From NCBI RefSeq assembly GCF_057098645.1, contig NZ_CM169472.1: a stretch of 64,000 bases of DNA; one strand, 5' to 3'. Below, piece by piece: positions 55,301 through 58,300 of this stretch; the stretch's first letter is position 1, and each line of letters begins with the position of its first letter. The position numbers are program-made.

Positions 55301-58300
55301 CAACAACATCGCAAGAATTAATGCGATTTTACGCATACTGCTTATTCCTTGATAAAACGGTTACACACGCCAGGACGGCAAAATGGATCCCAAATCGGAA
55401 TAGTCTGGATTTGGAAGGCTCACATTATCACCAAAAGAGTTTTACGCAAGCCTGTCGGAGCAGGGTTTACAAATTTAGCATAAGTAGCGATTTTCAAAAG
55501 TCCGAAAAGCGCATGTAAAACGGATTTATTTCTTATTTCCTAAGATTATGAAACCTCGATAGTAATATGCAAATAAGCAATTAATAATCCCGCTTCTCCT
55601 TTCTGTCCCCTAATATTCTCATCTTCATTCAGCCGGTTTATATCTTCCATGTATTTGTTCTCTCACGACAGATTGCTGCGCCTGGGCGTGTTTTCTTTGC
55701 CCCTTTTGCTTCCTTTACTCGCCAGCGCCGCCACACCGCACATCTCCCTCAGCTACGCCGCCCGCCAGCGGATGCAAAACCGTGCGCGGGTACTCAAACT
55801 GTACCAGGCACATCTGAAAAAACAGGCCAGCTATATTGTGGAAGGCAATGCCGAAAGCAGACGGGCGCTGCGCCAGCACAACCGTGAGCAGATAAAACAG
55901 CACCCGGAGTGGTTTCCTGGCCCGCTGAAATTGAGCGACCGACGCTGGCAGGCGCTGGCGGAAAACAATCACTTTTTAAGCAGCGATCACCTGCATAATA
56001 TTACCGAAGTGGCGATCCACCGCCTGGAGCAGCAGCTTGGCAAGCCTTACGTCTGGGGCGGCACGCGGCCCGATAAAGGCTTCGACTGTAGTGGGTTGGT
56101 TTTTTATGCCTACAACAAGATCCTCGAGGCGAAGCTCCCGCGCACGGCCAATGAGATGTATCACTACTATCGGGCAACAATTGTGGCGAACAACGACCTG
56201 CGCCGGGGAGATTTGCTGTTTTTCCATATCCACAGCCGCGAAATTGCCGATCATATGGGCGTGTATCTGGGCGATGGGCAATTTATCGAGTCGCCACGCA
56301 CCGGGGAAACCATTCGGGTAAGCCAGTTAGCTGAACCTTTCTGGCAGGACCATTTTTTGGGCGCGCGCAGGATTTTGACGGAAGAGACGATTTTGTAAAT
56401 GGGTAATATTGACGAACTGGCAAAAGGCCGGATGCCACACGGCATCCGACTTGTTTACATCTGGGCTGAAAACTCACGTTCTAAGACATCAACAATGAGC
56501 TGGTTTTTTGAAATGGAATGTTGTCTGGCGACGATGGTCAGCCGCGAATCAATGTGATGAGGAACACGAAGCGTCAGGCGTTTTTGCTCTTCTTCTTCAC
56601 GAAAAGGGGCAATACCGTCCTCTTCACAATCCGCCATCCACTCATCCAGCGCGCTTTCGCCCTCACGATATAATGCCTCAATGCTTGTGGCTACAAAGTC
56701 ACAATAACCGTTTACATTGAGGAATTTGCCGCGAAATGCATTGATATCGGCTTCAAATGTCACTGCGGCTGGTTGACCTTTAATTGTGATAATGTTCGAT
56801 GCTTTATTCATAATCTACCCCTACACAGTTAACAAACCACTCCTTAAGACCTGCTACTGCGCCTTTATCCATCACATTCTTTGGATGTGGCTCATGTGTA
56901 CTGAATTTGGTCGTTCCAATCTGAAATTTCCTTCTGGACCCATTGTTATTTTTTATTGTTCCACCCGCCGCTTTAATGAGCGCAACAACATCATCCCATT
57001 TAATTCCAGATTTTGGCGGCTCCGTCATTACATCGTCGAATGTTTTTCTATGGCGGGAGCCTAGCGCGCTGACCTTAATCATACTATCAATCCATGACAT
57101 CATTGTATGGTGTCATCGTAGTATGTTTGCAATGTGACGTCAATCAATGGTGTCAGATGCATGCAAAGCATGGAAAAGAATCCCCATCAACTCACTGCCC
57201 CCATAATCTTCAACTCCAGCTCATCCGGCACTTCGTTATACGACAGCACATGCAGCCCCGGCGCAAACAACCTTGCATAGCGAGCCAGCAAAGGGCGCAG
57301 CTGCGGCGGCACCAGCAGTACCGGGTCTTTCCCCGCCGCTTTCATCTGCTCTTTTACCTGCGGCATCGTGCTCTGGAACTGGTTGAGCATATTCGGGTCG
57401 ACCGGCACGCTGTCGAGCATCACTTTGCCGCCCTGTTGCGCCTGATTCACCACGTTGGTCAGCAGATTTTCCAGCTCATTATTCAGCATATACACCGTAA
57501 GCTCCTGCTTGCGAACGAACGGATGGGTAATGCTGCGCCGCAGCGCCAGGCGTACATCGGCTGCCAGCAGAATGTGATCTTTAGTCACCGTGCTACTGGC
57601 GACCAGCACGGTGGCGATGGTGACGATATCGCGCAGGGAAACGCCTTCGGTCAGCAGCGCACGGTACACTTTCAGCAACTGGCTGTAATTCAGCGCCGCG
57701 CTCAAATCCTCCGCCAGGCGCGGTGCCATCGACGACAGGCGGTTATGCAACTGTGTGATGTCATCATAGTTAAACAAATCAGGAATATAGCTGCGCACAA
57801 TCTTGTTTACATGGGTGGCAATCACGCTGGCGCTGTCGATTACCTGATACCCCATATTCAGCGCCTTCGCTTTCTGCGCGGGCTGGATCCAGGTCACCGG
57901 CATCCCGTACGCCGGGTCGTTCCCCAGCACGCCGTCTATCTCGCCGTAGGTTTCGCTGGAGGGCAGGGCCATCAGTTTATCCGCCGGAATATCCGCTTCA
58001 TCGGCCTTAATGCCGTTGATGAAAATAGCGTACTGGCTGGGCTTGAGGCGGAAATTTTCCCGAATGCGGATCTCCGGCAGCAGCACGCCGTTGCCGTCAG
58101 AAATCACCTGCCTCACGCCGCGAATCCGCTGGGTGAGTGGGTTGCCCTGCGCTTTATCGACCAGCGCTACTAGCTTGTAGCCAAGGCTTAAACTGATAGG
58201 CTCGATAAGCGGAATGGTTTCCCAACTGACCTGTTGCTCGCTGGTTTCAGTGATAGTGCGGGTCAGCGTTTCGAGGCTTTTCTCTTCCGCCTCCGCCGCC

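What the first reader, a model, noticed from the sequence alone, without database searches (positions are those of the whole stretch)
55337..55648. yafK to yafL intergenic region is short and lacks the dinJ-yafQ toxin-antitoxin pair present in K-12
Only 312 bp separate yafK and yafL, with no ORFs of TA size or character. By recollection of K-12 gene order, dinJ-yafQ lies between these two genes there. This strain therefore represents either the empty site or a deletion, useful for inferring the direction of TA gain or loss at this locus.
Basis: partly seen in the sequence, partly recalled or inferred. Interest (0 to 1): 0.35.

Follow-up and report, generated by a model that had tools for sequence, protein, structure and literature searches.

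The report
Toxin-free yafK–yafL spacer in O145:H28
This E. coli O145:H28 strain has the older, toxin-antitoxin-free form of the spacer between yafK (dpaA) and yafL, an ordinary and already described strain-to-strain difference found in about 38% of complete E. coli genomes, not a deletion scar.

Summary
In the window, yafK/dpaA (54596-55336, -) and yafL (55649-56398, +) are separated by exactly 312 bp with no DinJ/YafQ-like coding potential. K-12 has yafQ-dinJ between these two genes.

It is not a deletion scar. The spacer is colinear over its full length with the 311-312 bp spacers of E. albertii and two other non-K-12 Escherichia lineages. Citrobacter species also have yafK next to yafL with no TA pair. 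Nothing in window 55477-55648 resembles the K-12 cassette.

Of 5,426 complete E. coli genomes, 3,340 carry the dinJ-yafQ block and 2,084 carry the empty-type spacer. The published phylogroup pattern agrees with this polymorphism.

The K-12-type block has the same left junction (after window 55476) in K-12, O157:H7 and a cryptic Escherichia clade, and is 97.6-98.2% identical among them. The block also brings a different yafL promoter and signal-peptide region.

O145:H28 carries a rare allele, at least 99% identical in only 28 genomes and near-identical to Escherichia sp. E1V33. Its backbone relative O157:H7 carries dinJ-yafQ. The O145 lineage therefore probably lost the pair by allelic replacement through recombination.

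Interest is low.

The parts
54596..55336 (-). yafK / dpaA (peptidoglycan meso-DAP protein amidase, YkuD fold), left flank of the spacer
   Evidence: ORF. Pfam YkuD 2.9e-08. Annotated dpaA in the 100%-identical O145 RM9872 record.
55337..55648 (.). 312-bp yafK-yafL divergent intergenic region, TA-free ('empty-type') allele
   Evidence: Colinear with the 311-312 bp spacers of L003, L004 and L005 (E. albertii).
55337..55476 (.). Conserved left block next to the yafK start. It is shared by TA+ and TA- haplotypes and by Citrobacter and Phytobacter. It is inferred to hold the yafK promoter and 5' leader.
   Evidence: 139/140 identical between the window and K-12. Conserved to Citrobacter in the MAFFT alignment. 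The function is inferred; the simple scan placed no promoter in the body of this block (its one hit there overlaps the yafK start codon).
55476..55477 (.). Left junction of the dinJ-yafQ indel (...GGGTTTACAAATTT | ). In K-12 the yafQ stop codon lies 15 bp beyond this point.
   Evidence: The junction is the same in K-12, O157:H7 and the cryptic-clade locus L006.
55477..55648 (.). Variable block of the empty-type spacer, on the yafL-promoter side. It has no homologue in the K-12 cassette.
   Evidence: The local alignment score against the whole K-12 insert, on both strands, equals the shuffle mean. The block is 98.8-100% identical to E1V33 and PapM-32-1 and about 84-85% identical to other empty alleles and to E. 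albertii.
55649..55720 (+). yafL 5' end (signal peptide), haplotype-specific. MYLFSHDRLLRLGVFSLPLLLPLLASA here versus MSLPSIPSFVLSGLLLICLPFSSFASA in K-12.
   Evidence: 47-57% nucleotide identity between TA- and TA+ alleles over the first ~110 alignment columns. Similarity to K-12 resumes at about 55689-55721.
55649..56398 (+). yafL (NlpC/P60, C40 peptidase), right flank. The gene body is mosaic, 88-95% identical among Escherichia alleles.
56455..57103 (-). hicB (56455-56811) and hicA (56804-57103 as an ORF; annotated as 279 nt). This type II TA pair occupies the position that rayT has in K-12.
   Evidence: Pfam HicB 2.6e-10 and HicA_toxin 3e-07. Annotation. rayT sits at this position in K-12.
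59727..61231 (+). dinB followed directly by yafP. The yafN-yafO TA pair present in K-12 and O157:H7 is absent.
   Evidence: RM9872 annotation, coordinates mapped with an offset of 42595; dinB; yafNO present in K-12 and O157:H7.

Best explanation
The 312-bp stretch is the ordinary divergent promoter region between yafK (dpaA) and yafL, in its older, TA-free form.

In K-12-type strains, a block of about 0.84 kb sits immediately after the conserved 140-bp yafK-proximal segment. The block contains yafQ, dinJ and the dinJ promoter. It also contains a different yafL upstream region and a different yafL signal-peptide coding start.

That block arose once. The junction is the same in E. coli and in a cryptic Escherichia clade. 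It has since spread and been removed among lineages by homologous recombination using the flanking genes.

The O145:H28 lineage carries a rare, divergent copy of the empty allele (E1V33/PapM-32-1-like). Its closest backbone relative, O157:H7, is TA+. O145:H28 therefore most likely lost dinJ-yafQ by allelic replacement, not by excision.

Shown here: gene order, junction position, absence of remnants, outgroup states and population frequencies. Inferred: the direction of change (gain of the TA block in Escherichia), the recombination route in O145:H28, and the promoter/leader role of the conserved block.
For: The left junction is sharp at 55476, with 139/140 identity to its left and no alignable sequence to its right. 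The window variable block against the K-12 insert scores 18, against a shuffle mean of 17.8.

Outgroups: E. albertii L005, Escherichia sp. E1V33 L004 and L003 have yafK, a 311-312 bp spacer and yafL, colinear with the window. Ten Citrobacter/Phytobacter loci have yafK, a spacer of about 260-380 bp and yafL with no DinJ or YafQ. Only L006 has the TA pair.

Survey: 3,340 genomes hold the dinJ-yafQ block and 2,084 hold the empty-type spacer. The sum is 5,424, which equals all genomes that have the locus.

The TA+ block has an identical junction in K-12, O157:H7 and L006 and is 97.6-98.2% identical among them, although the L006 flank is only 95.7% identical. Empty alleles from five lineages are about 82-86% identical to one another, which means a deeper coalescence.

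The O145 allele is at least 99% identical in only 28 of 5,426 genomes. Window 54800-55700 shows 0-3 mismatches per 100 bp against E1V33. The mltD-dnaQ backbone is closest to O157:H7 at 99.1%, and O157:H7 is TA+.

Literature: yafQ-dinJ is reported in all genomes of the E/B1/A lineage and only in phylogroup F of the other lineage (PMC6896753).
Against: The right part of the K-12 block (the dinJ-yafL spacer) is clearly similar to the C. amalonaticus yafK-yafL spacer (z about 9.5-12). The window-type variable block is not significantly similar to any Citrobacter spacer (z<=1.9). The E. albertii version is only weakly similar (z 4.5-5.2). Part of the K-12 haplotype could therefore be the more ancestral-looking one, and the Escherichia empty allele may itself be derived on its yafL side.

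E. fergusonii was not recovered, so one key outgroup is missing.

The TA+ block is mostly coding and the empty variable block is non-coding, so the diversity comparison is not like for like.

The whole fadE-dinB region is mosaic, with 2-6% divergence even among E. coli. Lineage-level inference for O145:H28 therefore rests on one backbone segment plus literature. The phylogroup of O145:H28 was not found in the papers read and is taken from my own knowledge (Cooper et al. 2014).
Confidence: 0.8

Rival explanations
1. Simple deletion: an O145:H28 ancestor had K-12-type dinJ-yafQ and excised it, leaving a short spacer as a scar.
For: The nearest backbone relative, O157:H7, is TA+ and its yafQ is already frameshifted, so decay of this TA occurs in the lineage. 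The literature reports the pair in all E/B1/A-lineage genomes examined.
Against: A deletion would leave K-12-type sequence on both sides. Instead, window 55477 to about 55720 is unalignable with K-12. It is 98.8-100% identical to the spacers of E1V33 and PapM-32-1, and is colinear with E. albertii at the same 312-bp length. No direct or inverted repeats flank the K-12 cassette that could mediate excision.
Confidence: 0.03
2. Primary empty site: the O145:H28 lineage never had dinJ-yafQ and inherited the TA-free allele vertically from the Escherichia ancestor.
For: The allele is of the ancestral type and intact. The local region is so mosaic that backbone relationships say little about this locus. 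PapM-32-1, an unrelated baboon isolate, carries the same allele.
Against: The backbone segment is closest to TA+ O157:H7. The O145-type allele occurs in only 28 of 5,426 genomes. It matches E1V33 better in 54800-55700 than in the flanks, which is the pattern of an imported tract.
Confidence: 0.25
3. The empty-type allele is the derived form. dinJ-yafQ with the K-12-type yafL leader was ancestral to Escherichia, and an old replacement event created the empty allele, which then spread to E. albertii and other lineages.
For: The K-12 dinJ-yafL spacer is the Escherichia sequence most similar to a Citrobacter yafK-yafL spacer (z 9.5-12).
Against: No Citrobacter or other genus among 76 non-Escherichia loci has DinJ or YafQ at this site. 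Empty alleles are more diverse than TA+ alleles. The TA+ block of the cryptic-clade locus L006 is closer to E. coli than its flanks are, which indicates recent transfer.
Confidence: 0.07

Closest known systems
E. coli K-12 MG1655 dpaA-yafQ-dinJ-yafL locus (b0224-b0227)
   Same: Same flanking genes in the same orientation. The 140-bp yafK-proximal block is 139/140 identical.
   Different: K-12 has a 906-bp spacer holding yafQ, dinJ and the dinJ promoter, and a different yafL upstream region and signal peptide. The window has 312 bp with none of these.
Common TA-free yafK-yafL allele of E. coli (for example Ecol_545 and 10035210-2; about 2,050 of 5,426 complete genomes)
   Same: Colinear empty-type spacer with the same junction context. 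Many also have hicAB downstream of yafL.
   Different: 300 bp instead of 312 bp (an 11+1 bp indel). It is only 77-83% identical to the window over 55470-55730 and has a different YafL signal peptide.
yafK-yafL spacers of E. albertii NBRC 107761 and Escherichia sp. E1V33
   Same: 312 bp and fully colinear. E1V33 is 98.8% identical in the variable block and 100% identical over the first ~110 alignment columns of yafL.
   Different: E. albertii is 84.9% identical in the variable block. Both have rayT, not hicAB, downstream of yafL.
Published dinJ-yafQ presence/absence polymorphism across E. coli phylogroups (Gonzalez-Alba et al. 2019, PMC6896753; see also PMC10790755)
   Same: The same polymorphism. 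The pair is reported as a gained module present in the E/B1/A lineage and in phylogroup F, and YafQ as prevalent in A, B1 and F.
   Different: By its backbone, O145:H28 sits with O157:H7 (phylogroup E by my own knowledge). It is therefore an exception to 'present in all genomes of the EB1A lineage'.

Membership tests
dinJ-yafQ type II toxin-antitoxin locus | An ORF encoding a DinJ (RelB-family) antitoxin | tested here: not met
   tblastn of K-12 DinJ against the 64-kb window gives no hit at E<=1. No Pfam hit in the spacer ORFs.
dinJ-yafQ type II toxin-antitoxin locus | An adjacent ORF encoding a YafQ (RelE-fold) toxin | tested here: not met
   tblastn of K-12 YafQ against the window gives no hit at E<=1.
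Deletion scar of dinJ-yafQ | Residual cassette sequence, or K-12-type flanks joined directly | tested here: not met
   Local alignment of 55477-55648 against the K-12 insert, on both strands, equals the shuffle mean. The yafL leader is not of K-12 type.
Ancestral-type (empty) yafK-yafL intergenic allele | Full-length colinearity with the spacer of outgroup Escherichia species | tested here: met
   The window's 312 bp aligns end to end with L003 (311 bp), L004 (312 bp) and E. albertii L005 (312 bp).
Ancestral-type (empty) yafK-yafL intergenic allele | The same TA-free adjacency of yafK and yafL outside the genus | tested here: met
   Ten Citrobacter/Phytobacter loci have yafK, a spacer of about 260-380 bp and yafL with no DinJ or YafQ. 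Sequence similarity of the window's variable block to those spacers is not significant.
Ancestral-type (empty) yafK-yafL intergenic allele | Rooted ancestral-state reconstruction placing the TA-free state at the base of Escherichia | not tested
   No species tree was built and E. fergusonii was not recovered by the scan. The direction is inferred from parsimony and allele diversity only.
HicAB type II toxin-antitoxin pair (neighbouring, 56455-57103) | HicA toxin domain and HicB antitoxin domain in adjacent, overlapping genes | tested here: met
   Pfam HicA_toxin scores 30.9 bits (cut-off 27) and HicB scores 40.5 bits (cut-off 21). The ORFs overlap by 8 nt. Activity was not tested.

The most novel reading that the evidence does not exclude
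The dinJ-yafQ polymorphism may not be a simple cassette insertion. It may be a roughly 0.84-kb xenologous haplotype block that also swaps the yafL promoter and signal peptide. The block would have arisen once and moved between Escherichia species by recombination. The fadE-dinB interval would then be a hotspot where three TA-related modules (dinJ-yafQ; hicAB versus rayT; yafNO) are shuffled independently. On this reading, O145:H28 lost two K-12-type TA pairs and holds hicAB through imports from a non-typical Escherichia donor.
Probability: 0.5. Interest if true: 0.3.

Novelty: already known. Interest (0 to 1): 0.15.

Why it matters
It matters little beyond E. coli population genomics. The TA-free spacer is the older state and dinJ-yafQ is the gained, recombination-spread state.

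Strain-level absence can still be secondary, through allelic replacement. This is a caution for gain/loss inference from presence/absence tables.

The result also flags that K-12-based statements about dinJ-yafQ do not apply to O145:H28 or to about 38% of complete E. coli genomes. Examples are its inclusion in multi-TA deletion strains used in persistence work, and its SOS regulation. YafL also has two very different leader sequences, linked to TA status.

Tried and rejected
1. I looked for a scar by local alignment of window 55477-55648 against the whole K-12 insert on both strands. The score equalled the shuffle mean. The short matches that MAFFT had placed inside dinJ were rejected as forced alignment.

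2. I looked for target-site duplications or terminal inverted repeats around the K-12 cassette. Only short, chance-level repeats were found.

3. I tested the small ORFs in the spacer (77, 44 and 34 aa). None has a Pfam hit, and the 44- and 34-aa ORFs are broken by stop codons in relatives.

4. An Rfam scan of 54500-57300 at E<=1 found nothing.

5. The promoter scan found three sigma-70-like sites on the minus strand, against 0.8 expected. I do not rely on them. My hand-read promoter in the conserved block did not meet the scan's criteria.

6. I tested whether the window's variable block is homologous to the Citrobacter spacers. The result was not significant (z<=1.9), so the outgroup argument rests on gene adjacency, not on sequence identity.

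7. I searched plasmids for the K-12 cassette. Hits at 97% identity or more are F-prime plasmids or chromosomal pieces. Eighty-one plasmids carry only distant (60-80%) relatives, so no donor was identified.

8. I tried to confirm the phylogroup of O145:H28 from the literature. One search failed on syntax, and the papers retrieved did not state it. I used a backbone BLAST instead.

Full report
**What is in the window**

The window is from an E. coli O145:H28 strain. Segment 54596-56398 is 100% identical to O145 str. RM9872, and 55337-57186 is 100% identical in 26 complete genomes, all serotyped ones O145 or O145:H28.

- yafK, now called dpaA, is the 246-aa ORF at 54596-55336 on the minus strand.
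- yafL is the 249-aa ORF at 55649-56398 on the plus strand.
- The interval 55337-55648 between them is exactly 312 bp.
- Pfam assigns YkuD to YafK and NlpC/P60 to YafL.

In MG1655 the order is dpaA (b0224), yafQ (b0225), dinJ (b0226), yafL (b0227), with 906 bp between dpaA and yafL.

In the window:
- tblastn with K-12 DinJ, YafQ and RayT finds nothing at E<=1.
- The three small ORFs in or overlapping the spacer have no Pfam match.
- The two tested (44 and 34 aa) are interrupted by stop codons in related alleles.
- Rfam finds nothing.

**Anatomy of the difference**

Aligned to K-12, the first 140 bp next to the yafK start (55337-55476) are 139/140 identical. Similarity then stops abruptly after ...GGGTTTACAAATTT. 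In K-12 the yafQ stop codon lies 15 bp beyond that point.

To the right there is no clean junction:
- Window 55477-55648 has no detectable similarity to any part of the K-12 insert on either strand. The local score is 18, against a shuffle mean of 17.8.
- The first ~110 alignment columns of yafL are only 47-57% identical between TA-free and TA-bearing alleles. That is about as different as either is from Citrobacter.
- The encoded signal peptides differ: MYLFSHDRLLRLGVFSLPLLLPLLASA here and MSLPSIPSFVLSGLLLICLPFSSFASA in K-12.
- Similarity resumes at about 55689-55721.

The polymorphism is therefore a block of about 245 bp (window) versus about 840 bp (K-12), not a simple insertion. No flanking direct or inverted repeats of note surround the K-12 cassette.

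**Frequency in E. coli**

Of 5,426 complete E. coli genomes, 5,424 contain the yafK-yafL locus.
- 3,340 match the K-12 dinJ-yafQ block.
- 2,084 match the window's empty-type spacer in distant mode.
- The two counts sum to 5,424. This suggests a clean dimorphism, with no K-12-like dinJ-yafQ copy elsewhere in empty-type genomes.

The polymorphism is in the literature. Gonzalez-Alba et al. 2019 describe yafQ-dinJ as acquired, present in all genomes of the E/B1/A lineage and only in phylogroup F of the other lineage (PMC6896753). A second survey reports YafQ as prevalent in A, B1 and F (PMC10790755).

**Direction of change**

A scan of one genome per species with YafK returned 80 loci.
- E. albertii (L005), Escherichia sp. 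E1V33 (L004) and a divergent 'E. coli' (L003) have yafK, a 311-312 bp spacer and yafL.
- Their spacers align end to end with the window.
- Ten Citrobacter/Phytobacter loci have yafK and yafL adjacent, about 260-380 bp apart, with no DinJ or YafQ.
- Many other genera, including Salmonella enterica subsp. diarizonae, have yafK directly followed by dinB.
- Only Escherichia sp. MOD1-EC7003 (L006) has the TA pair.

The TA-bearing block has the identical left junction in K-12, O157:H7 and L006. It is 97.6-98.2% identical among them, although the L006 flank is only 95.7% identical to E. coli.

Empty alleles from five lineages are about 82-86% identical to one another in the 172-bp variable block.

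Outgroup states, the single shared junction, the shallower diversity of the TA+ block and the absence of any remnant together favour one reading. The TA-free spacer is the older state, and dinJ-yafQ is a single gain later spread by recombination.

**A caveat**

The dinJ-yafL spacer of K-12 is clearly similar to the yafK-yafL spacer of C. amalonaticus L021. The score is 53 against a shuffle mean of 19 (z about 12), and z is 9.5 with lenient scoring over most of its length.

The window's variable block is not significantly similar to any Citrobacter spacer (z<=1.9). E. albertii's block is only weakly similar (z 4.5-5.2).

The yafL-proximal part of the K-12 haplotype therefore looks more Citrobacter-like than the Escherichia empty alleles do. 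Either it was imported from a relative that kept that sequence, or the empty alleles diverged faster on that side. I could not resolve this, and E. fergusonii was not recovered.

**The O145:H28 allele in particular**

The window's version of the empty spacer is rare.
- It is at least 99% identical in only 28 genomes. Most other empty-type genomes are 77-83% identical over 55470-55730.
- It is 100% identical to the baboon isolate PapM-32-1 and 98.8% identical to Escherichia sp. E1V33 in the variable block.
- Window 54800-55700 shows 0-3 mismatches per 100 bp against E1V33, and more in the flanks.

The fadE-dinB interval as a whole is mosaic, with 2-6% divergence even among E. coli.

In a backbone segment (mltD-dnaQ, 41400-45300) the closest non-O145 genomes are O157:H7, at 99.1%. 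This is consistent with the shared lineage I recall from Cooper et al. 2014 (own knowledge; not confirmed in the papers read).

O157:H7 carries dinJ plus a frameshifted yafQ, a rayT pseudogene and yafNO.

The most economical reading is that the O145:H28 lineage once had the TA-bearing allele and lost it by homologous replacement with a TA-free allele from a divergent donor. I give this sub-claim about 0.6. The alternative is that the lineage never had the pair (0.25).

**Function**

The spacer is a divergent promoter region.
- The 140-bp block next to yafK is conserved from Escherichia to Citrobacter and Phytobacter. By inference it holds the yafK promoter and leader.
- The dinJ-yafQ block sits just beyond this conserved block.
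- The consensus scan found three sigma-70-like sites on the minus strand, against 0.8 expected. I do not place weight on them.

**Verdict**

The junction is one-sided, and the lineage-level history is probably a secondary loss by allelic replacement.

This is a known, common polymorphism, so interest is low.

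Noticed in passing
window 56455-57103 (-): A hicB-hicA type II TA pair lies immediately downstream of yafL, where K-12, O157:H7, E. albertii and E1V33 have rayT (the REP-associated transposase gene). 1,367 complete E. coli genomes cover at least 80% of the empty spacer + yafL + hicAB query. The strain therefore lacks dinJ-yafQ but has a different TA pair about 60 bp beyond yafL.
   Followed up: partly
window 60779-60782 (dinB/yafP boundary): yafP follows dinB directly, with overlapping stop and start codons. The yafN-yafO TA pair present in K-12, O157:H7 and Ecol_545 is absent, as it is in PapM-32-1 and 10035210-2. The three indels (dinJ-yafQ, hicAB/rayT, yafNO) occur in several different combinations among the six E. 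coli genomes inspected (five fetched loci and this window).
   Followed up: partly
window 47652-48914: A 1,263-bp insertion relative to O145 RM9872 lies between the Hcp-family gene and yafV. It encodes IS3-type OrfA (102 aa) and OrfB (288 aa), so the window strain is not RM9872 itself.
   Followed up: partly
window 55649-55720 and L001 6713-6790: YafL has two very different N-terminal signal peptides linked to TA status (47-57% nucleotide identity over the first ~110 alignment columns). The rest of the gene is a mosaic, 88-95% identical. yafL is much more polymorphic than the flanking core genes.
   Followed up: partly
L001 6592-6651 vs L021 (C. amalonaticus) yafK-yafL spacer: An AT-rich stretch, ...ACTGAAATATATATGTTAATTTTATAATAATGGTTTATTAAG, upstream of K-12 yafL is conserved in C. 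amalonaticus (z about 12). It is recognisable only as a loose TTAAT-N5-AATAAT-N-ATTAA pattern in the window (about 55561-55590). It may be a yafL regulatory site. This is unexplained.
   Followed up: partly
L083 (O157:H7 ECP17-46) 9016-9292 and 10690-11187: In O157:H7, yafQ carries a 2-bp deletion and is annotated as frameshifted, while dinJ is intact. rayT has an internal stop. The TA pair is decaying in the sister lineage of O145:H28.
   Followed up: no
window 57187-59656: A truncated lfhA (flhA-like) gene abuts lafU. This is the remnant of the lateral flagellar (Flag-2) cluster, with the same kind of deletion scar as in K-12.
   Followed up: no
loci L007-L082: In many Enterobacteriaceae (Salmonella enterica subsp. 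diarizonae, C. koseri, C. sedlakii, Lelliottia and others) yafK is followed directly by dinB. There is no yafL, rayT or Flag-2 remnant, so the content of this interval varies widely across the family.
   Followed up: no
window 53660-53792: The gmhA-yafJ spacer contains REP-like repeats. They match the REP arrays flanking rayT in K-12 at 85-90% identity. O157:H7 and Ecol_545 have a spacer here that is about 100 bp shorter.
   Followed up: no
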